Below, in pieces: positions 39,720-59,572 of a stretch of DNA of 64,000 bases. Origin of the DNA: Syntrophomonadales bacterium (lineage in GTDB: Bacteria; Bacillota; Syntrophomonadia; Syntrophomonadales; DTU052); the NCBI GenBank assembly GCA_050951725.1, contig JBMNJO010000025.1, positions 80,394 through 144,393 of the forward strand, in the 5' to 3' direction. A program made the translations under genes and the position numbers. The notes under the pieces are model-generated. The model was not told the DNA's origin, made no database searches, and was given only the letters and a program-made list of their open reading frames with translations. Each line of letters opens with the position of its first letter. Position 1 is the first letter of the stretch.

Positions 39720-40391
39720 CTATTCGCGACCCGGAATATGACTGCCATCACAGAAAGGTGGATTTTTGGTTTTTCCGCAGCGACAGAGTACAAAACGATC
39801 GGCTTCCCCGATAAGATTGCCACCTGCATCAAAGATTTGGTTGGGACCTTCGACCAGCAGAGGGCCATCCCTGATCACTCGAATCCTGCCAGCGGCGGCG
39901 GGGTCAATCTTGTAATCCCTGGAACCTGGCCCTTTGGCCAGATTGGGATCTACCGAGGAACCCTCCGGCAAACTGTACTGCAAAGCACGACTGGGACACT
40001 TGTCAATGGTACGAATAATCGTTTCGGCATCGCTGCCGGATAAATTAACCCACGGCCTTTTCTTGGTGTCGAATACTTCGGGTAATGTTCCCCAGCACTT
40101 ACCGGCGTGGGAACAGGCCTGTGGATACCAGTAAACGATGAGGTCCTGACTCTTATACTCCTTTACTGGGTTTGGGGAACTGCTAACGGGTTGTGCAGAT
40201 GAAGCCCCTGATTTGTTAAACAAATCCTTGCCCGCTCCGCAGACCGGGCATACCCAGTCAGGCGGAAGCTCAGCAAAAGGCGTACCGACTGGAATGCCAT
40301 GTTCGGGATCTCCGACCGTAGGATTATAAAGGTAACCACAAACTGAGCATTCGTAAACCTGTTGCCGATCTGCAGAATTCTCATTTTCCAT
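39720..40391 (-). CDS. rubredoxin - divergent 4Fe-4S mono-cluster - CDGSH iron-sulfur fusion protein
   Basis: The N-terminus is YECSVCGY...WVCPVCG (rubredoxin). The middle is [13 protein letters not shown]...IDKCPSRAL. The C-terminus is [19 protein letters not shown] 40391 has the better SD spacing. Confidence 0.75.
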
Positions 40392-40511
40392 TAACGCATC
40401 CCTCATCTCCTAAATATTAAACCTATAATATATGGTAACAAATTATCTATTGATCAACCAAATAAGAAATGCATTCGAACTCCGTGGAAGCACAACCTAG
40501 TTAAATAACCG

Positions 40512-41048
40512 CTACCGTCTTAGCGCAGCAAAGACAGAAAGATACTCCTTCTCAACGCTGGCATAATCCCGCTGGGCGAAGTCATATTCTGCAGTTCTCT
40601 TCGGCGGGGAATCGAATATCTGATAACCCATTAAGGCCTCAAACTCATAATAGAGCAGGACATCATCTATCTCGTCCATCTCCCTTACTTCCTCAGCTGA
40701 TAAATCACCCAGCCCAAAACGGTCATAAATCGTGTTCTGAAGATTTTCCTCGATCGCCACATATTCAGGTAAATGAAGTTTAACCGGTCGCGTTATATCG
40801 GATATGTAGCTTTCGCTGGCATCGTGGAGTAGACACCCCAACTGGATTCTCTTTGAACAGTCGCGGCCTACAGCCTCCCGGTAACAGTTGAGGGAGTGCT
40901 GGGCGACGGAGTAAAAGCAGCGGAAGTGCCCGTTGGCTCGGGTCATGAGTGACAGGGCATGGGCGATATCCTCAATGTATATATCCTCTTTCACCGGTTT
41001 TACCGGATAAAACCTGACGTGCGAGTAGGTTATGATGTAGTCTGACAT
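40512..41048 (-). CDS. HD-domain phosphohydrolase
   Basis: It has SVAQHS...LLHDASESYISDI (the H...HD...D pattern). ATG 41048 follows the SD GGAAGGGAAGGAA. Confidence 0.7.
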   Translation of the reverse strand: MSDYIITYSHVRFYPVKPVKEDIYIEDIAHALSLMTRANGHFRCFYSVAQHSLNCYREAVGRDCSKRIQLGCLLHDASESYISDITRPVKLHLPEYVAIEENLQNTIYDRFGLGDLSAEEVREMDEIDDVLLYYEFEALMGYQIFDSPPKRTAEYDFAQRDYASVEKEYLSVFAALRR

Positions 41049-41159
41049 TTCCTTCCCTTCCGATCCAGCATAATTTTGGCAACACCCTATAGCGAATAGT
41101 CTAAGACATTTTGGGCTTGGGTGCAAAAGGGACCGTATAAATGCAAAGGATAGTGAGGC

Positions 41160-42429
41160 TTATACATAGACCATTCCCTCTAATTTGTAAATTGGATCAA
41201 CGTCCACTGAAGTCAGTTTACTTAAATTTCGCCACACTGCATAGGCGGCAACAATGCTGTCTATTCCGTCTCCATCTTTGTCTCCTATCAGCATCGGGCC
41301 CAATTCTATTGGAATATGCACTGCTCTTTCCCGTAATCCCTCCAATAGCCTTTTTCGATTATCTTTATGTACTTGTTTGTTGCCCTTATATTCATTGTAT
41401 AGGTTTAGATCCTTTAGAGTTGAAGCGGGACATATTTCAATAACTATGGATTTTTTAGGAGCCGGCATCTGCATGGGTAAAACCCTTGCCAAGTCGTCCC
41501 GTATAAGCGGAAACAGTACTTTAGAAATGCCATTGTAGGTTTGCTTGTACAATTTAAGGTTCCATGGACACCACGGGGTTTTTGTTATCTTATCGGTTTG
41601 ACGTTTAACCTCAGGATGGCCAAACAGTTTCATCGAAAATTCACTATATGTATTTCTAAACGAATCTGCATCGCCAAATTTAGCAGCATAATTTGCAACA
41701 TATTTTTCCCAGGTGTTTTCTTTTATAACACTTTTGGGGTTGGAAAATGGAAAATCTATTCCGACCAAAGCATTCGATTGTTTCGCAATTAAACTAACTA
41801 AGAATGCCATGCTGGGATCAAGTTCCTGGGTACCACCTGGCATGTCACAAAGGCGTTCGCAACTATTGATTGTTAGTACTCCGTTGCCGGGCGATGCAAT
41901 CGTGATACAAATATGTTTTCCCGCTTCTTTTGACCCACTAAAATCGATTCCAATTATTGTGGGTATTATTTTTGCGTTTTCCAGGTTTGGTTTGTATACG
42001 GGAGTATCGATGCCGGGAGGTGGGAGGGGAAGTGCGAATGGCTTTCTTTTAAAACCAGCCATGATATATTGCTTATATGCCCATGTAGCGATGTCGTAAG
42101 CCGATTCCAACTGGGCTGCCGCACTAATCCATGTCCCGGATTTTTCATGAACGGCTGCATTACCCGCATCCCTGATTGAATGAAAACTCCTTTTTATTTT
42201 TCTTGGTAGTTTAGAGTGCTTATCCAAAAGCGAGAGCATTTCATACAGGTTTGGCGTTTCCGGTTCGGAGAGATCTTCCTCATTTAAGATGAACTTTGCG
42301 AGTTGTTCTGCAAACATTCTCAGATATACTAAATGCTGAGACCGGATTTGTGTATAATGTTTTCTCTGCTTCTTTTCCTAAGGAGGCCAAATATGGACAA
42401 TCGTCGTTAAGAAACGAAAAATTACTCAT
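41160..42429 (-). pseudogene. DUF4145-like N-terminal domain fused to an RNase-H-fold DUF429-like domain, with a 1-nt frameshift
   Basis: ORFs 42280..42555 (MSNFSFLNDDCPYLASLGKEAEKTLYTNPVSA) and 41160..42317 join as SA-LVYLRMFAEQLAKFIL if one T of the TTT run (plus-strand AAA at 42331-42333) is removed. The C-terminal part has IIGIDFSGSKEAG, LVGIDFPF and DGIDSIVAAYAV. Confidence 0.55.
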
Positions 42430-42850
42430 CGACACCCACCTTTCCTTAAGACTCCATGTATCTAATATCGTGACGCGACTCCTGTGTTTATAATTTTCTA
42501 CAACCATGTTACATATTGTAAATAGTTTATTTATTATTGCTTTCCTTGCCAACATAATTTGGGTATAAATATTTTTCTGCGTCTTGACATGGTGATGTCA
42601 CTTAGTCATGAAACAATCAGCGTAAAATGCAGAACTAACGTTTAAAGTGCTATTAATTTTCCACTATGGACTTTAGAGGAGTGACTGGCACAAATGTACA
42701 ATTAAGGAAAGGAGGCTAGTTTTACAAAGTTCTCAAAGCTGTTTTTTCAATACTACTTACATCCACGAAGTGACAGGTGTGATTTATGGAAGCAGTCAGA
42801 ATTCAATAAAAAATACACTTTTAGCTTTCACAGAAGGGTGATTAGTCATT

Positions 42851-44086
42851 ATGCCGCAACCGGTTCAGATTGGCTGGATCGATTTGGGAAGCCGTGATAA
42901 GAATAGGATACTGTCAGTGCTCAGCCTGCTCTATGCCGCTGAAGCGGTAGATGAGTTGGGAATCGGTGTAATTCGTGACGGTTTTGCCGACGTATTATTT
43001 CCGGGGACTTCAACCGTACAGACGAGAGCCAAATATTTTCTCATCGTGCCCTACACATTGATGGAACTGGAACGCGAGAGGAACCTCACTCCCAGGGCTC
43101 TGCTTGATCGTCTCGCCAAGGAAGAAATAGCTCTGATAAGCCAGTTGAAGAAAGGAAACGCCGAAGGTGTAATCGGTGGACGCTCCGGAGAACGGCTTCA
43201 GAAAAAACCCTCCAGTATCTACTGGAATGGTCTTTATACTTACGGTATCTTCCGCAGCCCAGTCAGGTTATCACTGGATGAGTATGCACACGCAGTCTGC
43301 GCATTGAATCGAACCAAAGCCAGGATAACGTCAGCGGGACACGCAGACCGCGGAGAAGGCACTGATGACACAGGCATTAGTTCCGGTAGTATCGGCACCT
43401 TCTGGCGGGCTCCGATACCTCCACCCGACTGGCGCGAAAGGGTGACAGTTGATCTTACCAAGGATGAAGCGCAATTCCTGCGCGACAAGATCATTAGTTC
43501 CGAGCACTCCAAAAACACACTGCTGGCCTTCGTACTCCGCAGCAATAGCTACGAAGTGAAGGACTATGACGATATATCAATGATAAAAGGGATCGTAAAC
43601 CTTCCTGAGGATATCAGGAGCGATTACGAAATGGCCGTACGTTTCTCGGAATTCATATATGGCGCAAATATCCGCTACAACATTATTCTGTCCAACGGCG
43701 AAAATGAGGATGCCAACGAAGCCTGGGATGAATGGTATGAACGAGTGACTGCCGGCTTTATTCAGAACTACAATGTATCTGAGCCGTTTGTCCGTTTATC
43801 AGTCAGCGGGCGCAACCGGGTACGGATATATCCTTTTGTAAAACAGTGGAAGCAGGCAGTTTTAGATGGTGACGTTTCTGCAATGGACGACCTTATAATA
43901 AAGCGCGAAATCCAACTCAAGGGCAAGGAACGGGCCAAATTGAAGAATCCCGGGGTCTATCGATGGAGAGAAGGTGTATGGCTGGGGGGAGGAAAACTTC
44001 AGTATCGGTTCCGCAACGCCCGCCGACTGATCGCTGATATTGTCAACGGGTTGGAGGGTGGTGATAGCGATGTTCAGGCTAACTGA
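42851..44086 (+). CDS. unknown-function protein, first gene of the three-gene operon (DUF6361-like by recollection)
   Basis: 411 aa with the N-terminal GWIDLGSRDKNRIL...DELGIGVIRDGFADVLFPGTSTVQTRAKYFLIVPY. It has no catalytic motif. It overlaps the next gene by 17 nt. Confidence 0.75.
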   Translation: MPQPVQIGWIDLGSRDKNRILSVLSLLYAAEAVDELGIGVIRDGFADVLFPGTSTVQTRAKYFLIVPYTLMELERERNLTPRALLDRLAKEEIALISQLKKGNAEGVIGGRSGERLQKKPSSIYWNGLYTYGIFRSPVRLSLDEYAHAVCALNRTKARITSAGHADRGEGTDDTGISSGSIGTFWRAPIPPPDWRERVTVDLTKDEAQFLRDKIISSEHSKNTLLAFVLRSNSYEVKDYDDISMIKGIVNLPEDIRSDYEMAVRFSEFIYGANIRYNIILSNGENEDANEAWDEWYERVTAGFIQNYNVSEPFVRLSVSGRNRVRIYPFVKQWKQAVLDGDVSAMDDLIIKREIQLKGKERAKLKNPGVYRWREGVWLGGGKLQYRFRNARRLIADIVNGLEGGDSDVQAN

Positions 44087-45857
44087 GGACAGACTGGACT
44101 ATGGAAAGGCTTTGGCTCCACCTCCGGGATTCAGGTGCGAATTTGCCGTAGGAACGACCTATTCACTCGATCTGGAAACCCTCTTGGGCGTGCCGATTGC
44201 CCTTTTCCTCTCTGAACAAATGGATAGCACCCTCCTGGAAAACCCTTTACTTATTCTTGAAGGTGTTCGCAAAAGTGCGGAAAACTTTGCATTGTTTTGC
44301 GAGGGTGGACAGATCAAGGTTCCGAGCAAAGGGAATCCCATTTTTGCCCTGTTGGAAAGCAGTGTGTTTCAGGTTGCACTGAAGAATGGCAAGTCGTTTC
44401 ACCCGAAGGTCTGGATCATAAAATATATTAACGAAAAGGGTCTGCCACTCTATCGATTTGTGATACTCAGCCGCAACCTCACCTTTGATCGCAGTTGGGA
44501 CGTTGCCGTCGTCTTGGAAGGCGAATCCGCTGCAAGATCAACAGGTAAAACCAAGCCCCTGATTGATTTTCTCCAATACCTGCGTCAACTGATTACCGAT
44601 GCCAAAAAGAAACGGCGGATTGCTGCGCTGATAAACGAACTACCCTACGTTAATTTTCAGACCGGTGACCGGCATTTTGTAGATTTTGATTTCTTACCGC
44701 TGGGTATTGGTAACGGCTACGATAAGGAGTCGGCGGGTCTGTTTACCACGTATCATGACTTGCTTGTGATTTCACCGTTTTTGAGCCAGAGTACTGTTCT
44801 TGAAATGAATGGCCTCTCGCTCTCCAATTCCCAAAAAACACTCATTACCCGTCGAACGGAAATCTCCAAGCTGACTAATGACCTGTTGCAAAGCTTTCCG
44901 TGCTATTGCCTGAAGGAGATGGTGATTGACGGGGAAGAGGCTCTCAGCGAACCGGATACTATCGCTGATCTCCAGAAACAGGACATACATGCCAAGCTTT
45001 ATTTTAGGAGTAAAAATACCGAGCACGTATTGTATGTTGGTTCAGCCAACTGTTCAAGCAGCGCCTGGAACGGCAATGTTGAGTTTATTCTGCGCTTGAA
45101 GTATGAAAAATGGGGATTTCGTGTTTCCCAAATCATTGACGAGCTATTCAATCGAAACGGCCAGGAAGATGATCGGCACAATCCGTTCGAGCGAATTGAG
45201 GCCGTACCGCCGATAGAGGTTACAGAAGACGATGTACAGCAGAAGCTTGAAAAAGCTATTAAGCGGCTCTGTCAATCTCGCTCAAAAGCGTCGGTTACTG
45301 CCAGTACCGGCGGGTACGATGTGGCAATTGAGTTCGATAAAGCCTTTATGGCGCAAGACATTGAGCTGAAAATTGCTTCTCTCGGGGGCGGTACTCCTGC
45401 CCCAATTGAGCCGATCACGGTTCTTACCGGTTTATCACTGTTGCAGCTGGGTGAGTTTTACGTGGTAACAGCAAGACTGGGTGAAGACTATTTGGAGCGC
45501 ATTATTAAGATTCATACTGAAGGGATTCCGCCTGAAAGGGATAACGCAGTCTATAAACATCTGATAAAGGATCGTAATACATTCCTGCGCTATATTGCCT
45601 TTATACTGGCTGACGATTATTTGCTGACGTCTTTGGAGCAATTTGAATATAAGGACATAGGAGTAAAAAGCCTGAACCTTCAGAGTTACACAATGCCGGT
45701 TATCTACGAAAACATGCTGCGGGCAGCCGCCCAATCTCCCGAAAGACTGCAGGAAATCGATTTGCTTATCAAGCGATTGGATAGCAACGAGATCGTCCCT
45801 CCGGAGTTCCAGGTACTTTTTTCAACATTTCTCAGGGCGAGCAGGAGGATTAATTAA
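44070..45857 (+). CDS. phospholipase-D-superfamily protein with a single HKD motif (Nuc/BfiI-like putative nuclease)
   Basis: ATG 44070 follows the SD GGAGGGTGG. The motif HAKLYFRSKNTEHVLYVGSANCSSSAW (HxK...GSxN) lies at about 44988-45070. The N-terminus has GTTYSLDL. Confidence 0.8.
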   Translation: MFRLTEDRLDYGKALAPPPGFRCEFAVGTTYSLDLETLLGVPIALFLSEQMDSTLLENPLLILEGVRKSAENFALFCEGGQIKVPSKGNPIFALLESSVFQVALKNGKSFHPKVWIIKYINEKGLPLYRFVILSRNLTFDRSWDVAVVLEGESAARSTGKTKPLIDFLQYLRQLITDAKKKRRIAALINELPYVNFQTGDRHFVDFDFLPLGIGNGYDKESAGLFTTYHDLLVISPFLSQSTVLEMNGLSLSNSQKTLITRRTEISKLTNDLLQSFPCYCLKEMVIDGEEALSEPDTIADLQKQDIHAKLYFRSKNTEHVLYVGSANCSSSAWNGNVEFILRLKYEKWGFRVSQIIDELFNRNGQEDDRHNPFERIEAVPPIEVTEDDVQQKLEKAIKRLCQSRSKASVTASTGGYDVAIEFDKAFMAQDIELKIASLGGGTPAPIEPITVLTGLSLLQLGEFYVVTARLGEDYLERIIKIHTEGIPPERDNAVYKHLIKDRNTFLRYIAFILADDYLLTSLEQFEYKDIGVKSLNLQSYTMPVIYENMLRAAAQSPERLQEIDLLIKRLDSNEIVPPEFQVLFSTFLRASRRIN

Positions 45858-48800
45858 TGAGCGATTTAGCTGTCAGGGAAAGACAGATCCTCTCCGGATT
45901 GAAAGATTTTCAGAGGGCGACCGTGGAACGGATTTTTACACTGCTAACCAGTGGCCGTAACCGCGTACTGGTCGCCGATGAGGTTGGACTTGGCAAGACT
46001 CTGATTGCCAGAGGGGTAATTGCAAAAACCGCCTTGTACCACCAGCAGTCTCTCCGTGATAACCTGTTCAAGGTAGTCTATGTCTGTTCCAACCAGAGCA
46101 TAGCTGGACAGAATCTTGCTCGGCTCAGGATACAGAACACTGATAGAATCGAAAGTCTTACCGATACCAGGTTGTCCATGCAGCATCTGAAGATATTCGA
46201 GGACGAAATAACTGCTGTGGAACGTAATAGCTATTTGCAACTCATTCCTTTGACTCCCGGCACATCATTCAACATTACCGGCAGCAGCGGGAGCGTGCAG
46301 GAACGCGCCTTGATTTTCGCCATTTTGAGCCGGCATAAAGAACTGGCCGGTTACCGTCAGGCCTTGGAATTACTGATGATGGGTAACGCTGAAAAAAGTT
46401 GGAGGACATGGGTGAGGGACTTGTATGAAAAACGGGTTCGCGATTGTGAGCGAGCCAGTGATGGCAGGTACCTGCAAACAGTTTTGACAAACATTGACCG
46501 TTACTTTGAGACCGATGACGACCTGCTTCCTGATTTGCTTGATCTCTGCAAACGAATAACCTCTCTTAGGAAAAAGCAGGATGATTCCAATCAGATGATA
46601 TACCGTCTGCGCCGGATGATGGCCGAGATAAGTGTTGGTTTGATTGACGCTGATTTGGTGATAATGGATGAGTTCCAACGCTTCCCCGAGTTAATCAGAA
46701 CAGATACGGATGATGAAGCCGCCATGCTGGCCCGGCGATTTTTCAACGCCGACAAGCGTGACAATCAGAAGGTTAAAGTCCTGCTACTCTCCGCCACTCC
46801 TTACAAGCTATACTCAACGTTGGAAGAGATCAATGAAAGTGGCATTGACGAACACTACCGTGAATTTATGCAGGTTATTGATTTTCTTTTCGAAAGTAAC
46901 CCCACTCTGAAACAACAATTTCGCCAGGTGTGGAGCAATTATTCGGTTTCCCTGAGAGAACTGGAAACTCAGGAAATTACAATCCTGTCCGCGAGGAAGA
47001 ATCAGGCGGAAAATGCCTTATACCAGGGAATCTGCAGGACGGAGCGTTTGTCGGTTCCAGGAGCGGAGAAGCTGGTTGATATAGAAACCGCCAAATGCGC
47101 TTTGGAGATTTCGGAAAAGGATGTTTTGTCCTATATGGAAGCTTATCAACTGCTCCAGGAGCTAGGTCTTAACGAATATGTGCCGGTTGAGTACGTCAAA
47201 TCGGCTCCGTATATATTCTCGTTTATGGAACACTACAAGCTTAAAACCAAGGTGTTCGATTATTTTAAGAAGAATCCCAACCGAATATCGGCCGCCCGCA
47301 AGCCTGAATTATGGATAAATGAAAATCTGATAGCCCGGTATGAAAAGCTGCCTGATACCAACGCCCGTCTAAAGAGTCTGAAGGAAGAGGCTTTGCCTCC
47401 TGGAGCGGAGCACCTGATTTGGATTCCTCCATCGAAAACGTACTATGAACCGGGGGGACCATATTCAAAGATAAAGGACTTTTCCAAGATTCTTGTGTTT
47501 TCATCATGGGAAATGGTTCCGCGCGCCATCGCAGCTGTACTATCGTATGAAGCTGAGCGGTTAACCGTGGGAAAACTGGTTAGAAAAACTGACAATCCCA
47601 AAGGGGAAAACCGCAGCTATTTTCCGCCGCGGAAAAAGGTGCGATTTCCGGCACCGCGCCTTAAATTCACCGTACGTGATGGTCAGCCGGTCAATATGAA
47701 TCTGATGGGGTTACTCTATCCCTGTGTGACCCTGGCTAGGCTGTACAATCCGATTGATTGCCTGAATGCCAAGTTTACACGAAGAGAGATCGAAGCACAA
47801 CTACGCAGCAGAATTGAAAAGATGTTGGAAGCCATAACGTTTAAACCGAAACACGACGAGATAGGCCATGATGAAAGATGGTATTCGGTTGCCCCGGTTC
47901 TTTTTGACCGGAATGAGGCAACGATAAGAGAATGGTTAAACGGCGGGGAGTACATTTGGAACCCCAAAACTGATGAATCCGAGGGGAACGAGCCCGAGGA
48001 CGATAACAACGCTCTGGATCAGCATTTTGCCGCCCTGAATTGCATACTCGATGATGCGGATAATCTCGTCCTGGGGCGAAAACCTCGCGATCTAGTGGAT
48101 GTTTTGGTCGCAATGGCCATGGCTTCACCTGCGGTGTGTGCAATGCGGCTGTTCGGAACGGAGCAGGAGAATTCGCCGCGGTTATCTGTACGCTTGGCCA
48201 AAACCCTCATCAACCGTTTTAATTCACAGGAAGCAACGTCCATTGTTGAGCTGTGCTACGGAGACAAAGACCCTCATTGGAAGAGCGTACTTCGTTACTG
48301 TGTCGATGGTAATCTGCAGGCGGTGCTCGATGAATATGCCCACATGCTTGTTGATGACAATGGACTTTGGCATGTCGACCGAAATAAAAGATCAGAAGTG
48401 CTGTGTGAGCGAATGAATACAGCTTTTACAACCCATACCGCCAGCTACAACGTTGACACCTATCGTAAATTTCGGGAGCGCATGAAGAAAGCGAAGACCC
48501 ATGGCAGCGGGCGCCAACAGGATGAGCCCAGATTTATTAAGATGCGGTCCGGTTATGCCGCCGGCTTTTACGACATGAAGGGAGCGGACAAGGGCCTTCA
48601 ACGCAAGGAAAGTCTGAGGCTGGCATTTAATTCGCCATTTCGTCCGTTTGTTCTGGCAACCACCTCTATTGGTCAAGAAGGGCTGGATTTTCATTTCTAC
48701 TGTCGCAAGATCGTGCATTGGAATCTGCCCTCCAATCCCATAGACTTGGAACAGCGGGAGGGACGCATCAATCGGTACAAATGTCTGGCTATCCGGCAGA

Positions 48801-49159
48801 ACATAGCCAAAAAATACGGAAATATGCGTTTTAAGGAGGATATCTGGCGTGAGATGTTTGAGCAAGCCAACCGGGATGAGAAAAATAACGATTGTCCCGA
48901 ACTGGTACCCTTCTGGTGCTTGCCCGGCGATACATCGGTTAAGATTGAACGGATAGTACCCATGTATCCTCTGAGCAAAGATCAAGTAAAATATGACCGG
49001 TTGATCAAGATACTCTCCCTCTACCGCCTGAGCCTGGGACAGGCCCGGCAGGAGGAACTGCTTGAATATGTATTGAGCATTGATATGGACAAGGAGCAGA
49101 TCCGAAAACTGTTTATCAATCTAAGTCCGTGGGTTAGGGAACGGAACGGATCCAGCTAA
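45857..49159 (+). CDS. SF2 helicase, SNF2/RapA-like, 1100 aa with a large insertion and a C-terminal extension
   Basis: It has motif I ADEVGLGKTLIA, motif II MDEFQRF, motif III LLLSATPYK and motifs V/VI TTSIGQEGLDFH...QREGRINRY. Its start overlaps the upstream stop (TAATG). Confidence 0.9.
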   Translation: MSDLAVRERQILSGLKDFQRATVERIFTLLTSGRNRVLVADEVGLGKTLIARGVIAKTALYHQQSLRDNLFKVVYVCSNQSIAGQNLARLRIQNTDRIESLTDTRLSMQHLKIFEDEITAVERNSYLQLIPLTPGTSFNITGSSGSVQERALIFAILSRHKELAGYRQALELLMMGNAEKSWRTWVRDLYEKRVRDCERASDGRYLQTVLTNIDRYFETDDDLLPDLLDLCKRITSLRKKQDDSNQMIYRLRRMMAEISVGLIDADLVIMDEFQRFPELIRTDTDDEAAMLARRFFNADKRDNQKVKVLLLSATPYKLYSTLEEINESGIDEHYREFMQVIDFLFESNPTLKQQFRQVWSNYSVSLRELETQEITILSARKNQAENALYQGICRTERLSVPGAEKLVDIETAKCALEISEKDVLSYMEAYQLLQELGLNEYVPVEYVKSAPYIFSFMEHYKLKTKVFDYFKKNPNRISAARKPELWINENLIARYEKLPDTNARLKSLKEEALPPGAEHLIWIPPSKTYYEPGGPYSKIKDFSKILVFSSWEMVPRAIAAVLSYEAERLTVGKLVRKTDNPKGENRSYFPPRKKVRFPAPRLKFTVRDGQPVNMNLMGLLYPCVTLARLYNPIDCLNAKFTRREIEAQLRSRIEKMLEAITFKPKHDEIGHDERWYSVAPVLFDRNEATIREWLNGGEYIWNPKTDESEGNEPEDDNNALDQHFAALNCILDDADNLVLGRKPRDLVDVLVAMAMASPAVCAMRLFGTEQENSPRLSVRLAKTLINRFNSQEATSIVELCYGDKDPHWKSVLRYCVDGNLQAVLDEYAHMLVDDNGLWHVDRNKRSEVLCERMNTAFTTHTASYNVDTYRKFRERMKKAKTHGSGRQQDEPRFIKMRSGYAAGFYDMKGADKGLQRKESLRLAFNSPFRPFVLATTSIGQEGLDFHFYCRKIVHWNLPSNPIDLEQREGRINRYKCLAIRQNIAKKYGNMRFKEDIWREMFEQANRDEKNNDCPELVPFWCLPGDTSVKIERIVPMYPLSKDQVKYDRLIKILSLYRLSLGQARQEELLEYVLSIDMDKEQIRKLFINLSPWVRERNGSS

Positions 49160-49404
49160 GTTTATGTGTAAGGTTGCTCTGGTTATTTGGATGCCTTCAA
49201 TAAGGATTCGTTTAACCCACAATTTGGAGAATTACGAAGAAAATATCCTTGGGGTAATTTGCTATTGTTTATTAAAACGGGTCTGTCAGGGCTAACGATG
49301 ATGTAATCGGTTGGCCCAAAAACGCAAAAAAGATGAGGACTGAGAAAAGCAGCGGCCTACTAGCCGCTAGTTCATGCTATTATCAACCGAAGGGAGGGTT
49401 CACC

Positions 49405-49914
49405 ATGCCGTTAAAAATAGTCCGCAATGACATTACCAAGATGGAGGTTGACTCCATCGTCAACGCGGCGAACACTGCGCTGAGAATGGGTGGAGGGGTA
49501 TGCGGTGCGATCTTTTCAGCCGCCGGGGCTGATGAACTGCAGGCGGAATGCAACCGCATTGGAGGGTGCAATGTTGGTGAAGCCGTTATAACCGGCGGCT
49601 ATCGCCTGCTAGCCAAGTACGTTATACATACGGTTGGTCCCATATGGCGGGGCGGCAGTTCGGGCGAAGCCAAGCTGTTACATAATGCCTATACCAACTC
49701 CTTGCAACTGGCTTTGCAGTATAAATGTGAATCGATTGCTTTTCCGCTGATCTCATCGGGGATTTATGGGTACCCCAAAGACGAGGCACTGCAGATTGCC
49801 ATTGCAGCCATCGGTGAGTTCCTGCTAAGTCACGATATGCTGGTTTATCTGGTCGTCTATGATGAAGAGACTTATATCTTGAGCAAAAGACTGCTTTCTG
49901 ACATTGAACGATAA
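49405..49914 (+). CDS. macro-domain protein (ADP-ribose binding / O-acetyl-ADP-ribose deacetylase type)
   Basis: It reads IVRNDITKMEVDSIVNAAN...GGGVCGAIF...AFPLISSGIYGYP. The SD is GAAGGGAGGG. Confidence 0.85.
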   Translation: MPLKIVRNDITKMEVDSIVNAANTALRMGGGVCGAIFSAAGADELQAECNRIGGCNVGEAVITGGYRLLAKYVIHTVGPIWRGGSSGEAKLLHNAYTNSLQLALQYKCESIAFPLISSGIYGYPKDEALQIAIAAIGEFLLSHDMLVYLVVYDEETYILSKRLLSDIER

Positions 49915-50040: not shown

Positions 50041-50283
50041 TGAATTGTTATCCCCTCAAACAGCACCGCAGGTCCCAGTCAACCTGTGGATGCTGTCGAT
50101 TTCCTTCTTTTCGGCGCCGACTGCCGCGTATTGTATCATTGGCAGGCCATTAGTGGTAAACTTTTTCGTTGACATTCAGACGTATATTACGAGTCTGAAA
50201 GTTTTGTGCATGGTATAATTACTTTATAGAATTCCCACTAATAAGATAATTGGCACGTCTTAATAATGGAGAGGGGGATGGGT

Positions 50284-52556: not shown

Positions 52557-53016
52557 GCCTGCCCAAAAACTTACCCGCCATATGTTCTTATCTATATTGA
52601 ACTCTGATTCCCCTGCGAAAACCTCAAACTTACGAGTTATTACTTTTCACAGGGAAATCAACTTTGCAAACAAGGAACTAACATCATGCAAATGGAATCC
52701 TAACAAACGAAACCTTAAAAACACACCAAACCCCCGTTAGACCTGGGTTTTCCACAATCTTACATTCCCGAAATTTGCATACAAATCAAACACACCGCAA
52801 ACGTTTCCCAAACAATGCCCATGTTATGCTCGGGGTGCGACCCGCTGAACCGACAAAGGTGGTGGTCCCTGATGGTATTAGGTGCGGCGTTTCTTGCCCC
52901 AGGGTTACGACCGGCAGGTGCCAAATGAAGAGGGGCATCTGTTTGAAGGACCCGCTTGCAGGGGAAGAGACGTCGGGATAGTGGAGGCGGATGCCGGCAT
53001 AAAGGAGGGAACGAAG

Positions 53017-53982
53017 CTGCTTAACTATTTTAACGAGATGACTGCCTTTTACGAGCAAGACTGGCCCAACAGGCTCAACAGTTCATCAAGCATGCTGTAT
53101 ATGCTCCTGCTCCATATGGGCAACAAGCTGTTTTGGGAAGAGGGGTTCGAGGTCTCCAGCAAGGTGCTGCGCGCGAAGGCCGGGATCAGTGACCGTAAGA
53201 CCCTGGACCGGGCGCGGGCTTTGTTGGTGGAAAAGGGACTCATACTGTATACCCCGACTCAACCGGCCAAAGGGCTGGGCAAATATACCATTGTGGGATT
53301 GGCATCCCCAAAGGGCGGACCCCGCCGCCGGATGCCTAACTCGGGAAAGGATGATCACTGCCGATCAAGTCATGAATCCTGTGATGAGGCTGCACCGGAT
53401 CTGGAAAACACAGACACCTCAGCAGTAGGGCCGAACCCGGGGGACAAATCCCCGTATAGTTACCCGGGGGCGGAGGCGGGAGATGTGCTGTGGAATAAAT
53501 CCCCGGTGGTGAGTCTTTATCCCGGGAATAATTCCCCGCACGGTGACCGGACTAATGCCCCAAAACCCCGATTTGGCGTGGGTTCCAGGCCGTCCATAAA
53601 AAAACAAAACTATAAACATACTAAACACTCGTCTGCTAACGCAAACGAGACCAGTGACGATTCTGTAAGCAGCCGGGAGTTGATCAGGGAACTGGTACAG
53701 AACTTCCGGAGCATTGAAGGGATTACGTCCGCGAAAGGGGATTACCCGTTTATTGGCTGCCTGTACAATGAGTTTGGTTTCGAGGGGGTCCTTTCAGCCA
53801 TCCATGAGTTGGCAATGGCTGCCGCAACAGCCAAGATTGAGAAACCCTTGATCTACCTCAAGTCAATTCTCGTGAAACGAAGATCCGGATTTTATGGGAC
53901 AGGTTTTATTTCCTATGCTGCACAGTTGAGAGAGGAGGTTGATCCGGTTGAACGTTACCGATATGACAGATATGAAGGTTGA
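53017..53982 (+). CDS. DnaD-domain / phage replisome-organizer-like replication protein
   Basis: The ORF is open from 52882. It has an N-terminal winged-helix-like LYMLLLHMGNKLF...AGISDRKTLDRARALLVEKGLILY and a C-terminal DnaD-like FIGCLYNEFGFEGVLSAIHE. The start is uncertain: CTG 53017 lies 7 nt after the SD AAAGGAGGG, or ATG 53038. Confidence 0.6.
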   Translation: MLNYFNEMTAFYEQDWPNRLNSSSSMLYMLLLHMGNKLFWEEGFEVSSKVLRAKAGISDRKTLDRARALLVEKGLILYTPTQPAKGLGKYTIVGLASPKGGPRRRMPNSGKDDHCRSSHESCDEAAPDLENTDTSAVGPNPGDKSPYSYPGAEAGDVLWNKSPVVSLYPGNNSPHGDRTNAPKPRFGVGSRPSIKKQNYKHTKHSSANANETSDDSVSSRELIRELVQNFRSIEGITSAKGDYPFIGCLYNEFGFEGVLSAIHELAMAAATAKIEKPLIYLKSILVKRRSGFYGTGFISYAAQLREEVDPVERYRYDRYEG

Positions 53983-54829
53983 AAACGGCCTGATTGACAC
54001 CTGGAATTTTGATGATAAAGGACAGGTACATGATTCGGGACCCGAGGCACTGCCTGAGCTTCCTCCCGATTATGAGTTGGTTCGTCAGTACATAAGATGC
54101 TGCCCGGATTGCGGCCGGGAGATTCGTGAGCGTACCTCCATCAGTCCGGAAAGGATTTTGATCATGGAAAGGTCGCGCTGCCGGTGTGCTCCAGAGCCTG
54201 TGGAGGATGAGCTGGAACGGGTGGCCAGGAAGCAGAAGGAACTGGACCGGTTTTTCGGCGATTTGAACCTGGCGAAATCACCAGGGCCGGATCTTGCTGA
54301 GTTAGCGCCCCGCCACGGGCAGGAGGAGGCTCAAAAGATGGCGCAAGTATTTCTGGAGTCGAGTGTCACGGGTAAGAGCCTGCTGCTGAACGGACCTCCC
54401 GGACGCGGCAAGACAGAGGTGGCCCTGGCCATGGCCCGTTCTGCCAGCGCCGACCGGACAGTAGTCTGTATCAAGTCCATCGACCTGCTGGACCGTATCC
54501 GGCGCTCACTCTGGCAGGAGGATAAAAAGATTGAGCTGCTAGGAATCCTGCGCACTGTAAACCTGCTGATTATCGACGATATCGGGGTGGAGAAGGCCAC
54601 TGAATGGGTACTGGCTACCCTCTATGCCATCATCGACCATCGTTATGGCCACCGGGATACGGTGTTCACCACCAATCTGACAGGGAAGGAGATGAGTTCC
54701 CGCCTCGGTCCGGCCTTAACCTCCCGTATCTACGGTTCGCGGGTGGTAACCTTGGCCGGTCCGGACTGGCGAATCAGAAGCCGCCAGCGGATCTCGGCGG
54801 AATGGACCCGGGACGAGGACAAGTGGTGA
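53939..54829 (+). CDS. DnaC/IstB-like AAA+ helicase loader
   Basis: It has Walker A NGPPGRGKTEVA and Walker B LLIIDDIG, plus an N-terminal CCPDCG...CRC zinc-ribbon-like motif. The start is uncertain. Confidence 0.8.
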   Translation: MIRLNVTDMTDMKVENGLIDTWNFDDKGQVHDSGPEALPELPPDYELVRQYIRCCPDCGREIRERTSISPERILIMERSRCRCAPEPVEDELERVARKQKELDRFFGDLNLAKSPGPDLAELAPRHGQEEAQKMAQVFLESSVTGKSLLLNGPPGRGKTEVALAMARSASADRTVVCIKSIDLLDRIRRSLWQEDKKIELLGILRTVNLLIIDDIGVEKATEWVLATLYAIIDHRYGHRDTVFTTNLTGKEMSSRLGPALTSRIYGSRVVTLAGPDWRIRSRQRISAEWTRDEDKW

Positions 54830-58786: not shown

Positions 58787-59572
58787 ATGATTGGTACGAT
58801 TTGCGGTGATTTCATCGGTTCGGTTTTTGAATGGCATAATCACAAATCCAAAGAGTTTGAGCTATTTTCTCATAGATCCCGCTTTACTGATGATTCGGTG
58901 ATGACCATCGCCACCATGGATGCGCTGCTCAATGATCTGGACTTTGGCTTCTGCTACCGCAAGTGGTACCGGAGGTACCCGAATGCCGGCTATGGCGGCA
59001 GTTTCCGGGAGTGGGCCGCGGATGATATCAGCCTGCCTTATAATAGCTGGGGCAATGGGTCAGCAATGCGGATAAGTCCGGTGGGGTGCTTTTATGACTC
59101 GCTGGATATGGTATTGACCAAGGCCCGGGAAAGTGCGGAGGTATCCCATAACCACCCGGAGGGGATAAAGGGGGCCCAGGCAACCGCGGCCTGTGTTTTC
59201 TGGGCCCTGCAGGGTGAGAGCCAGGCTTCGATAAAGGCGCTGGTAGAAGGGAAGTTCGGATATGACCTGAACTTTTCCCTGGACAAAATCCGGGATGGGT
59301 ATGAATTCGATGTTTCCTGCCAGGGGAGCGTTCCCCAGGCGATCGTTGCATTTCTGGAGTCAACCGATTACGAGGATGCAATCCGCAACGCCATTTCTAT
59401 TGGTGGTGACAGCGATACCATCGCGGCTATTGCCGGGGGCATTGCGGAGGCCTTCTATAGGGAGATCCCTTCCTATATCAAGGACCGGGTGGTGAGTTCA
59501 CTTCCGTCCGAGTTCCGGGAAGTGATCGCCGCCTTCTATGCCTGCTGTGGATGGGAGGATATGCTCCCGTAG
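58787..59572 (+). CDS. ADP-ribosylglycohydrolase family protein
   Basis: It has FTDDSVMTIA, WGNGSAMRISPVG and IGGDSDTIAAIAGGIAEAFY. Confidence 0.85.
   Translation: MIGTICGDFIGSVFEWHNHKSKEFELFSHRSRFTDDSVMTIATMDALLNDLDFGFCYRKWYRRYPNAGYGGSFREWAADDISLPYNSWGNGSAMRISPVGCFYDSLDMVLTKARESAEVSHNHPEGIKGAQATAACVFWALQGESQASIKALVEGKFGYDLNFSLDKIRDGYEFDVSCQGSVPQAIVAFLESTDYEDAIRNAISIGGDSDTIAAIAGGIAEAFYREIPSYIKDRVVSSLPSEFREVIAAFYACCGWEDMLP

What the first reader, a model, noticed from the sequence alone, without database searches (positions are those of the whole stretch)
40512..42429. DUF4145-like / RNase-H-fold (DUF429-like) fusion gene followed by an HD hydrolase, divergent from the PLD-helicase operon
The N-terminus (MSNFSFLNDDCPYLASLGKEAEKTLYTNPVSA-LVYLRMFAEQLAKFIL...IRDAGNAAVHE) matches the DUF4145 pattern. 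I know that pattern from the N-termini of type I restriction HsdR and abortive-infection-type proteins. The C-terminal 270 aa has the Asp-containing strands of DUF429 RNase-H-like proteins (IGIDFSG, VGIDFPF, DGIDSIVAAYA). I do not know this fusion as a characterised protein. An HD phosphohydrolase gene follows 111 nt downstream on the same strand. The pair may be a second, independent defence or nucleic-acid-targeting module in the same island. The gene carries a homopolymer frameshift at 42331-42333.
Basis: partly seen in the sequence, partly recalled or inferred. Interest (0 to 1): 0.6.

Follow-up and report, generated by a model that had tools for sequence, protein, structure and literature searches.

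The report
HEPN-capped RNase-H-like nuclease gene, frameshifted
A one-of-a-kind gene fuses a restriction-enzyme-type DUF4145/HEPN head to a DUF429 RNase-H-like nuclease and sits as a single-gene cassette between a resident HD hydrolase gene and an Azaca anti-phage operon. It is most likely a defence nuclease, and this genome carries a naturally circulating broken allele of it.

Summary
On the minus strand, 42429-41160 encodes a 422-aa protein. Its N-terminal part is a DUF4145/HEPN module (32.1 bits against a cut-off of 23.1; R86/H94 conserved). A proline-rich linker follows. Its C-terminal part is a divergent DUF429 RNase-H-like domain: it is about 40% identical to ~270-aa proteins that pass PF04250, the model pLDDT is above 95, and D162/D225/E331/D390 are invariant.

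The frameshift is real, but it is one extra base at 42334, not a homopolymer length change. The same insertion occurs in 12 other assemblies, and 7 assemblies are intact.

The divergent operon is a complete Azaca system (ZacABC). The fusion architecture is unique: the only full-length match among the 150 best-scoring hits listed from 1.84 billion representatives was the protein itself.

Synteny shows the fusion gene is a ~1.44-kb single-gene cassette. One relative has Azaca directly next to HD without it. Another has HD with neither.

So HD is resident and is not co-mobilised. However, 22-23 of 80 loci of this same HD family are HD-DUF429 fusions. These fusions have WYL regulators upstream and defence-rich neighbours.

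Standalone homologs of the C-terminal domain sit mostly in housekeeping contexts. The defence reading is therefore plausible but unproven.

The parts
41160..42429 (-). DUF4145-DUF429 fusion gene. It is 422 aa when intact; here a +1 insertion disrupts it.
   Evidence: P0001 is 100% identical after removal of one base; the intact gene is called in 6 assemblies in the same context.
42334..42334 (-). Inserted base (T on the + strand) that shifts the frame after codon 32. The shifted frame stops after 49 aa. The remaining ORF restarts at M38 (42317) and gives 385 aa.
   Evidence: The same insertion is in L182-L193, and P0390/P0394 exist as called ORFs. It is absent from L001-L006 and L014.
42054..42429 (-). 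N-terminal DUF4145/HEPN-type module (residues 1-125). R86 is at 42171-42173 and H94 at 42147-42149.
   Evidence: Pfam gives 32.1 bits against a cut-off of 23.1. NCBIfam HsdR N-terminus and the PADLOC models PDC-M16A and REase_I N-termini also match. R86, G89, N90 and H94 are invariant in an alignment with the N-termini of HsdR, DptF and an AAA-ATPase.
41964..42053 (-). Proline-rich linker (residues 126-155).
   Evidence: Model pLDDT is 33-51 and no secondary structure is predicted.
41163..41963 (-). C-terminal DUF429-family RNase-H-like domain (residues 156-422). Conserved acidic residues: D162 (41943-41945), D225 (41754-41756), E331 (41436-41438), D390 (41259-41261).
   Evidence: Homologs pass PF04250. 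Invariant columns are listed. AF2 pLDDT is above 95 with strand/helix order b1-b2-b3-a-b4...b5-a. The best Foldseek matches are RuvC and terminase nucleases, but they are weak.
41049..41159 (-). 111-nt spacer between the fusion gene and HD. It holds no terminator-like or promoter-like site and ends in the HD ribosome-binding site GGAAGGGAAGGAA.
40512..41048 (-). YfbR/Atu1052-like HD phosphohydrolase (178 aa), a resident backbone gene.
   Evidence: Synteny with GDPD holds in L018-L020. H51, H75, D76, E79 and D128/D129 are invariant.
42430..42850 (.). Divergent intergenic region between the fusion gene and zacA. It contains the palindrome TGACAT-N4-ATGTCA at 42585-42600. Homology with the fusion-less relative L021 ends at 42585.
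42851..49159 (+). Azaca defence operon: zacA 42851-44086 (DUF6361), zacB 44040/44070-45857 (PLD), zacC 45857-49159 (helicase).
   Evidence: PADLOC ZacA, ZacB and ZacC at E 4e-100, 4e-153 and 0. Pfam domains. Biochemistry in bioRxiv 10.1101/2025.07.10.664194.
49333..49914 (+). Macro-domain gene at the far edge of the variable segment.
   Evidence: Pfam Macro at 145 bits. It is absent from L020. Homologs directly follow HD-DUF429 fusions in L092 and L096.

Best explanation
The intact allele encodes a lineage-specific two-domain predicted nuclease that most likely acts as a stand-alone single-gene defence (restriction or abortive-infection type) effector. It sits in a defence hotspot next to Azaca.

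Shown:
- The N-terminal ~125 aa are the same DUF4145/HEPN module that caps HsdR, DptF and plasmid AAA-ATPase defence proteins. The R-x7-H residues R86/H94 are intact.
- The C-terminal ~265 aa are a divergent DUF429 RNase-H-like domain of the RuvC/terminase clade. It keeps every family-invariant residue, including D162, D225, E331 and D390.
- The gene is a ~1.44-kb single-gene indel between Azaca and a resident HD gene.

Inferred:
- The HEPN module dimerises. It either cuts RNA, as in RAZR, or gates the enzyme.
- The DUF429 domain cuts RNA in RNA-DNA hybrids or branched/replicating invader DNA in a metal-dependent way. This is by analogy with the RNase HII-type activity reported for the DUF429 domain of M. 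smegmatis RelZ.
- The downstream HD hydrolase, probably co-transcribed, may work with it in trans by removing or converting nucleotide products. HD and DUF429 are fused in many relatives.

In the window's genome the gene carries a natural +1 insertion and is probably inactive.
For: - Domain calls.
- N-terminal module: it is found at residue 1 of HsdR, DptF, HsdR-like helicases and an AAA ATPase, on 117 plasmids. R86, G89, N90 and H94 are invariant.
- DUF4145 function in the literature: it is a HEPN RNase with catalytic R146/H154 at the same spacing in RAZR (PMC13017515). It also occurs in the single-gene defence proteins BxaP and Ishtar.
- DUF429 function in the literature: RNase-H-like superfamily clade D (PMC3985635) and RNase HII activity in RelZ.
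- Island context: the neighbour is Azaca. The segment is absent from syntenic L020. The cassette is absent from L021.
- HD link: 22-23 of 80 HD-family loci are HD-DUF429 fusions. Among their 77 near neighbours, Pfam or PADLOC domain hits include WYL/WCX regulators (5), helix-turn-helix proteins (8), ThsB-TIR (2), DndB, Mrr and a type I R subunit. Neighbours of standalone HD genes show few such hits.
- Further HD link: HD_4-DUF429 fusions P0005 and P0039.
- Operon structure: no terminator-like site between the two genes, and one after HD.
Against: - No experiment exists on this protein or on any close relative.
- The protein itself does not reach any Pfam DUF429 score.
- Profile-profile comparison with canonical DUF429 is weak.
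- Structure matches are all above E 0.003.
- The N-terminal part of the model is low-confidence, with pLDDT 50-70.
- Standalone homologs of the C-terminal domain have scattered, mostly housekeeping neighbours. None of the 33 pattern-matched candidates in the viral-contig scan was a relative, and only one plasmid carries one.
- HD is present without the fusion gene in relatives L018-L021, so the adjacency could be chance.
- The architecture occurs in one lineage only, so no co-occurrence statistics are possible.
- The role of DUF4145 at HsdR and DptF N-termini is unknown.
Confidence: 0.5

Rival explanations
1. Housekeeping enzyme pair. The DUF429 domain removes RNA-DNA hybrids or processes a nucleotide-linked substrate, and HD dephosphorylates the products. 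DUF4145 is only a helical adaptor. The position next to Azaca is incidental.
For: - Standalone subfamily homologs have no conserved partner and mostly metabolic neighbours.
- Majorek et al. noted that DUF429 context is conserved within taxa and that the genes are unlikely to be mobile.
- DUF429 is fused to nucleotide-metabolism domains: Nudix, RelA/SpoT, HD_4, CinA and SIS.
- RelZ acts in R-loop stress.
- HD is a core-like gene with more than 2800 homologs.
Against: - The closest relatives of this DUF4145 module are N-termini of restriction and defence enzymes.
- The gene is a variable cassette in a defence hotspot.
- HD-DUF429 fusions sit in defence-rich, WYL-regulated contexts.
- A loss-of-function allele circulates widely. 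That is unusual for a needed housekeeping gene.
Confidence: 0.2
2. The gene is an accessory fourth component of this lineage's Azaca system, for example a sensor or a second nuclease recruited to ZacABC.
For: - It shares a 421-bp divergent promoter region with zacA.
- The block 41271-49048 is identical between the window and L014 apart from the 42334 insertion, while the flank differs. The fusion gene and Azaca are therefore inherited together in these strains.
Against: - Azaca is a three-gene system, and ZacABC alone cleaves DNA in vitro.
- The fusion protein matches no Zac model.
- L021 carries ZacAB at 94% identity without the cassette.
- The frameshifted allele persists in many samples beside an unbroken Azaca operon.
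Confidence: 0.1
3. In this genome the locus is simply a decaying pseudogene with no present function. Any activity belonged to the ancestor.
For: - The +1 insertion truncates the frame at 49 aa and removes helix 1 and part of helix 2 from the restart product.
- No good ribosome-binding site precedes M38.
- The allele is common, at 12 of 19 assemblies.
- The L014 allele changes the nearly invariant residues D387 and S391.
Against: - Apart from the single insertion, the frameshifted copies encode exactly the same residues (P0390 is identical on 7 contigs). Inactivation is therefore recent.
- Intact alleles co-circulate.
- A +1 ribosomal shift at UUU-A cannot be excluded.
Confidence: 0.15

Closest known systems
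RAZR (PD-T7-4), a zinc-finger + DUF4145/HEPN RNase single-gene defence protein (PMC13017515)
   Same: It has a DUF4145 domain with a conserved Arg and His eight positions apart (R146/H154 against R86/H94). It is a single polypeptide in a defence context.
   Different: RAZR has the HEPN domain at the C-terminus behind a zinc ribbon and has no second nuclease domain. The window protein has no PADLOC PD-T7-4 hit. Its RNase activity is untested.
N-terminal DUF4145 module of type I HsdR (PRK11448 type), DptF and plasmid AAA-ATPase proteins (PADLOC PDC-M16A)
   Same: Residues 1-136 align end to end at 30-41% identity. R37, E41, R86, G89, N90, H94 and W116 are invariant.
   Different: Those proteins continue into helicase/ATPase-nuclease motors of 770-1170 aa. 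Here the module is followed by a 265-aa DUF429 domain. The HsdR model scores 89 bits against a cut-off of 729.
DUF429 (PF04250) RNase-H-like family; RelZ/MS_RHII-RSD of M. smegmatis
   Same: Predicted RNase-H-like fold with acidic residues on strand 1 and after strand 4. The family tends to be joined to nucleotide-metabolising domains.
   Different: The window domain belongs to a divergent subfamily (GIDFSG, GxDFPF, EICPAST, GDxxDS motifs). It does not itself reach the Pfam model. It aligns with canonical DUF429 only at the C-terminal motif. RelZ carries a (p)ppGpp synthetase, not a HEPN module.
HD-DUF429 fusion proteins of Clostridia (about 420 aa; uncharacterised; not in PADLOC v2)
   Same: They use the same HD family as the window's HD gene (57-69% identity), joined to a DUF429 nuclease domain. 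Their neighbourhoods are defence-rich.
   Different: The domains are fused in the order HD then DUF429. The DUF429 is canonical (150-170 bits). There is no DUF4145. WYL regulators lie upstream.
Ishtar anti-plasmid proteins (N-terminal HEPN DUF4145/DUF3644 + small alpha/beta C-terminal domain; bioRxiv 10.64898/2026.07.06.735840)
   Same: An N-terminal HEPN domain followed by an uncharacterised alpha/beta C-terminal domain, in a single-gene immune protein.
   Different: Ishtar proteins are 165-260 aa and carry an RNxxEH motif. phmmer found no similarity to five listed members.

Membership tests
Pfam DUF4145 (PF13643) / HEPN superfamily | Score at or above the Pfam gathering cut-off | tested here: met
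   32.1 bits against 23.1, residues 19-96.
Pfam DUF4145 (PF13643) / HEPN superfamily | Conserved Arg...His catalytic-type motif | tested here: met
   R86 and H94 (R-x7-H) are invariant with G89 and N90 in alignment A9. The spacing equals that of RAZR R146/H154.
Pfam DUF4145 (PF13643) / HEPN superfamily | All-alpha HEPN fold | tested here: inconclusive
   Five helices are predicted, but pLDDT is 50-70. Foldseek matches to HEPN structures 1o3u and 7ae6 have probability 0.47-0.60 and E about 0.8.
Pfam DUF4145 (PF13643) / HEPN superfamily | RNase activity | not testable with these tools
   Needs biochemistry.
Pfam DUF429 (PF04250) / RNase-H-like superfamily clade D | The protein itself scores at or above the gathering cut-off | tested here: not met
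   No DUF429 hit at E <= 1.
Pfam DUF429 (PF04250) / RNase-H-like superfamily clade D | Clear homology to proteins that pass the cut-off | tested here: met
   E 1e-45 to 1e-59 and 36-43% identity. P0349, P0385, P0022, P0005 and P0002 score 41.8, 33.8, 30.4, 28.5 and 25.5 bits against a cut-off of 23. PGAP names a 34%-identical relative 'DUF429 domain-containing protein'.
Pfam DUF429 (PF04250) / RNase-H-like superfamily clade D | RNase-H-like strand/helix order with acidic residues on strand 1, after strand 4 and on the C-terminal helix | tested here: met
   Strands E158-162, E174-181 and E184-192, helix H203-216, strand E221-224, then strand E327-332 and helix H387-400, all at pLDDT above 95. 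D162, D225, E331 and D390 are invariant. The best PDB match is phage RuvC 4ktw (probability 0.96, E 0.03, TM 0.51).
Pfam DUF429 (PF04250) / RNase-H-like superfamily clade D | Profile-profile match to canonical DUF429 | tested here: inconclusive
   hhalign of A4 against A6 gives probability 6.7% and E 0.005, covering only the GDALDS/DDxIDAL motif region.
Azaca (ZacABC) system component | Matches ZacA, ZacB or ZacC, or always accompanies them | tested here: not met
   The fusion protein has no Zac hit. L021 has Azaca without the cassette. ZacABC suffices in vitro.
Type I restriction HsdR | Full-length match including the helicase and nuclease motor | tested here: not met
   Only residues 1-136 match. 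The score is 89 bits against a cut-off of 729.
Ishtar | Sequence similarity to listed family members | tested here: not met
   phmmer at E <= 10 against five Table S3 sequences found no hit.
Two-gene module (fusion gene + HD) | The two genes travel together in relatives | tested here: not met
   HD occurs without the fusion gene in L018-L021. However, the recombination tract in L014 spans HD plus the last 110 bp of the fusion gene, so a diverged donor also had them adjacent.
Two-gene module (fusion gene + HD) | Independent fusions of the two domain types elsewhere | tested here: met
   22-23 of 80 HD-family loci are HD-DUF429 fusions. HD_4-DUF429 fusions P0005 and P0039 also exist.
HD phosphohydrolase, YfbR/HD_3-like (the downstream gene) | Pfam cut-off and the H...HD...D metal ligands | tested here: inconclusive
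   HD_3 scores 18.0 bits against a cut-off of 22.5. H51, H75, D76, E79 and D128/D129 are invariant. The family profile matches 2GZ4 at E 4e-14 and YfbR 2PAQ at E 2e-3.

The most novel reading that the evidence does not exclude
DUF429 RNase-H-like nucleases working with HD phosphohydrolases form an unrecognised family of anti-phage or anti-plasmid modules. In about 420-aa Clostridial proteins the two domains are fused and sit behind WYL regulators. In the window they are adjacent. The window gene would be a HEPN-capped variant that uses the resident HD gene in trans.
Probability: 0.25. Interest if true: 0.65.

Novelty: new variant of a known kind. Interest (0 to 1): 0.45.

Why it matters
If the reading is right, it would add an RNase-H-like (DUF429) effector to the set of domains placed behind the DUF4145/HEPN head shared by HsdR, DptF and RAZR-type proteins. 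It would also give a first functional handle on two large uncharacterised groups. These are DUF429 itself and the HD-DUF429 fusions of Clostridia, whose neighbourhoods look like defence islands but which are absent from PADLOC v2. The co-circulating intact and frameshifted alleles offer a natural on/off pair for testing cost and benefit in the source community.

Tried and rejected
- Sequence and profile searches of PDB found nothing for either domain of the fusion.
- A homolog search with the N-terminal 136 aa alone returned nothing. It was replaced by tblastn on plasmids.
- Neighbours of standalone DUF429 homologs (a 191-aa ORF in L009 and DUF6125 in L008) are unrelated to the window's HD.
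- None of the 33 pattern-matched candidates in the viral contigs encoded a relative of the C-terminal domain. In phage records only the N-terminal module matched, inside hsdR/helicase genes.
- Promoter and terminator scans were not above chance. The inverted-repeat scan gave nothing notable inside the genes.
- Most 'DUF429' literature hits were actually DUF4297.
- The homopolymer-slip reading was rejected, because the extra base is not part of the run.
- A sequencing error was rejected, because the insertion recurs in 12 assemblies.
- Membership in Ishtar, RAZR, HsdR or Azaca was rejected (see the membership table).
- Programmed +1 frameshifting at UUU-A was considered but has no supporting feature.
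Full report
**What is in the sequence**

The minus strand carries two ORFs that join into one gene, 42429-41160, once a single base is removed. The repaired product is 422 aa. It is 100% identical over its full length to database protein P0001. P0001 is called intact on six independent contigs with the same neighbours.

The lesion is an extra T at +42334, which is A on the coding strand. The window reads CAGCATTTAG where intact copies read CAGCTTTAG. The extra base lies beside the AAA run at 42331-42333 and is not an expansion of it.

It is a real allele. The 385-aa and 91-aa ORFs it creates are in the protein collection as P0390 and P0394. P0390 is also held under an NCBI Syntrophomonadales MAG. 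The identical insertion is present in 12 further assemblies from JGI, ENA and Logan. Seven assemblies are intact. Outside this base, L002 and L003 are identical to the window over about 9 kb.

**Domains of the fusion protein**

- *N-terminal module.* Residues 19-96 match Pfam DUF4145 at 32.1 bits against a cut-off of 23.1. Residues 1-136 match the N-terminus of the HsdR model PRK11448 at 89 bits, and the N-termini of the PADLOC models PDC-M16A and REase_I. tblastn finds the same ~135-aa module at residue 1 of proteins on 117 plasmids; the annotated examples are HsdR, DptF, an HsdR-like helicase behind a WYL regulator, and a 979-aa AAA ATPase. R37, E41, R86, G89, N90, H94 and W116 are invariant.
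- *What is known about DUF4145.* It belongs to the HEPN superfamily (PMC3710099). In RAZR, an Arg and a His with the same spacing (R146/H154) are needed for defence, and the protein cleaves ssRNA (PMC13017515).
- *Linker.* Residues 126-155 are proline-rich and disordered in the model.
- *C-terminal domain.* Residues 156-422 give no Pfam hit themselves. They are 36-43% identical (E 1e-45 to 1e-59) to ~270-aa proteins, several of which pass the DUF429 cut-off. D162, D225, E331 and D390 are invariant across 120 sequences, along with G160, F163, G165, G223, R276, Q296, C333, P334 and G386.
- *Structure model.* The AF2 model has pLDDT above 95 for this domain. Its strand/helix order is RNase-H-like, and the acidic residues lie at the end of strand 1, just after strand 4, on strand 5 and on the C-terminal helix.
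- *Fold matches.* Foldseek's best matches are phage RuvC (probability 0.96, E 0.03), terminase nuclease domains and RuvC-like resolvases. All are weak.
- *What is known about DUF429.* It was placed in RNase-H-like superfamily clade D with RuvC and terminases (PMC3985635). The DUF429 domain of M. smegmatis RelZ has reported RNase HII activity on hybrids and R-loops.

**How unusual the fusion is**

Among the 150 best-scoring hits listed from 1.84 billion representative proteins, only P0001 covers both halves. All the others are single-domain proteins or carry different N-terminal or C-terminal extensions. Other fusions in this DUF429 subfamily are to HD_4 (P0005, P0039), SIS (P0100), CinA (P0385) and a ParA-like ATPase (P0352). 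The nearest relatives of the C-terminal domain are only about 40% identical.

**Surroundings**

- The divergent operon at 42851-49159 matches ZacA, ZacB and ZacC (E 4e-100, 4e-153 and 0). This is the Azaca system, in which ZacABC together cleave phage DNA in vitro.
- A Macro-domain gene follows at 49333-49914.
- The gene 111 nt downstream of the fusion gene (40512-41048) is a YfbR/Atu1052-like HD hydrolase. It has more than 2800 homologs, mostly in Clostridia and Peptococcaceae.
- The 111-nt spacer has no terminator-like site, and one follows HD. The scan is not above chance.

**Synteny defines the units**

- L020 (HD 79% identical) keeps the HD-GDPD backbone and the acyl-CoA-dehydrogenase-like gene found at 50266 in the window. 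It has no fusion gene, no Azaca and no Macro gene.
- L021 (UBA3932) has ZacA and ZacB at 94% identity directly beside HD. Its homology to the window runs from zacA to 42585 and resumes at about 41141. A 160-nt N-run there has roughly the length expected for the HD 5' region. The ~1.44-kb stretch holding the fusion gene and its promoter is therefore missing.
- Between the window and L014, 82 of 103 differences fall within 40000-41270, which covers HD plus the last 110 bp of the fusion gene. The stretch 41271-49048 is identical except for base 42334. This is a recombination tract. Its donor also had the fusion gene next to HD.

HD is therefore resident, the fusion gene is a single-gene cassette, and Azaca is a separate unit.

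**Is HD a partner?**

In 80 genome loci of this HD family, 22-23 encode HD-DUF429 fusion proteins of about 420 aa. Their DUF429 domains score 152-172 bits. The remaining loci show no DUF429 within 6 kb.

Among 77 near neighbours of these fusions, Pfam or PADLOC domain hits include:
- WYL/WCX regulators, in some loci directly upstream (5);
- helix-turn-helix proteins (8);
- DpdF-, PbeA- and BrxH-like helicases;
- ThsB-TIR (2);
- DndB, Mrr and a type I R subunit;
- Macro (2).

An equal sample of neighbours of standalone HD genes gives few PADLOC hits. The fusions themselves are not in PADLOC v2. In the held library, no paper links DUF429 with defence beyond one passing co-mention in a 2013 metagenome study.

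Homologs of the window's Macro gene directly follow HD-DUF429 in L092 and L096. These fusions argue that HD and DUF429 work together and that the combination is defence-associated. The DUF429 in those fusions is only distantly related to the window's subfamily.

**Evidence against a defence role**

Seventy-six metagenome loci of the window's DUF429 subfamily are all standalone. They have no HD or DUF4145 neighbour and no conserved partner. Their immediate neighbours are mostly metabolic genes, with only a few defence hits (AbiEi, DrmD-like, type IIG). Individual long contigs show the same pattern. In the viral-contig scan, none of the 33 pattern-matched candidates proved to be a relative, and only one plasmid carries one.

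**Verdict**

The fusion gene is an independent cassette in a defence hotspot, built from a restriction-type HEPN head and an RNase-H-like nuclease. The HD gene is a resident neighbour. Its link to DUF429 rests on fusions elsewhere, not on co-mobility.

The mechanism is inferred, not shown: HEPN-mediated dimerisation or RNase activity, metal-dependent cleavage by the DUF429 domain, and possible help from HD. In this genome the gene carries a naturally circulating loss-of-function allele.

Noticed in passing
L040:4993-7263, L050:382-2670, L056:4939-7254 and 19-20 further loci among L022-L096: About 420-aa HD-DUF429 fusion proteins occur in Clostridia, using the same HD family as the window's HD gene. 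In some loci a WYL-WCX regulator lies directly upstream and a small helix-turn-helix gene downstream. Neighbours include TIR, Dnd, Mrr, type I RM and helicase genes. The fusions are not in PADLOC v2 and may be an undescribed candidate defence gene.
   Followed up: partly
window 49333-49914; L092:2132-3259; L096:7308-7631; L011:3904-4392: A Macro-domain gene lies just after zacC. Its homologs (56-62% identity) sit 15-30 nt downstream of HD-DUF429 fusions in two genomes. Another Macro gene lies two genes from a standalone subfamily DUF429. The DUF429 subfamily also has CinA fusions, which hints at a link to ADP-ribose/NAD chemistry.
   Followed up: partly
window 40000-41270 compared with L014: A ~1.3-kb patch spans HD, the spacer and the last 110 bp of the fusion gene. 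It holds 82 of the 103 differences between two otherwise near-identical strains, so it is a homologous recombination tract. The L014 allele changes the conserved GDxxDS motif to GNRIDN (D387N, G388R, S391N).
   Followed up: partly
window 42585-42600: The palindrome TGACAT-N4-ATGTCA lies in the zacA/fusion divergent region. It is conserved (TGACAT-GATC-ATGTCA) upstream of zacA in L021 and marks the point where homology with the fusion-less locus ends. It may be an operator.
   Followed up: no
L021:3080-3239: A 160-nt run of N covers the HD 5' end in the UBA3932 contig. Its length fits the expected sequence, but the original scaffold was not checked.
   Followed up: partly
window 52882-54829: An IstB-like ATPase ORF (53939-54829) overlaps the end of a 366-aa ORF with no Pfam hit (52882-53982). 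Together they may be an IS21-type element about 3 kb beyond the island.
   Followed up: no
window 58787-59572: An ADP-ribosylglycohydrolase gene lies about 9 kb from the Macro gene. It is a second ADP-ribose-processing enzyme in the window.
   Followed up: no
window 44040-44086: The zacB start is ambiguous. A TTG at 44040 gives 605 aa, and an ATG at 44070 gives the 595 aa called in other assemblies. Either start overlaps the end of zacA.
   Followed up: no
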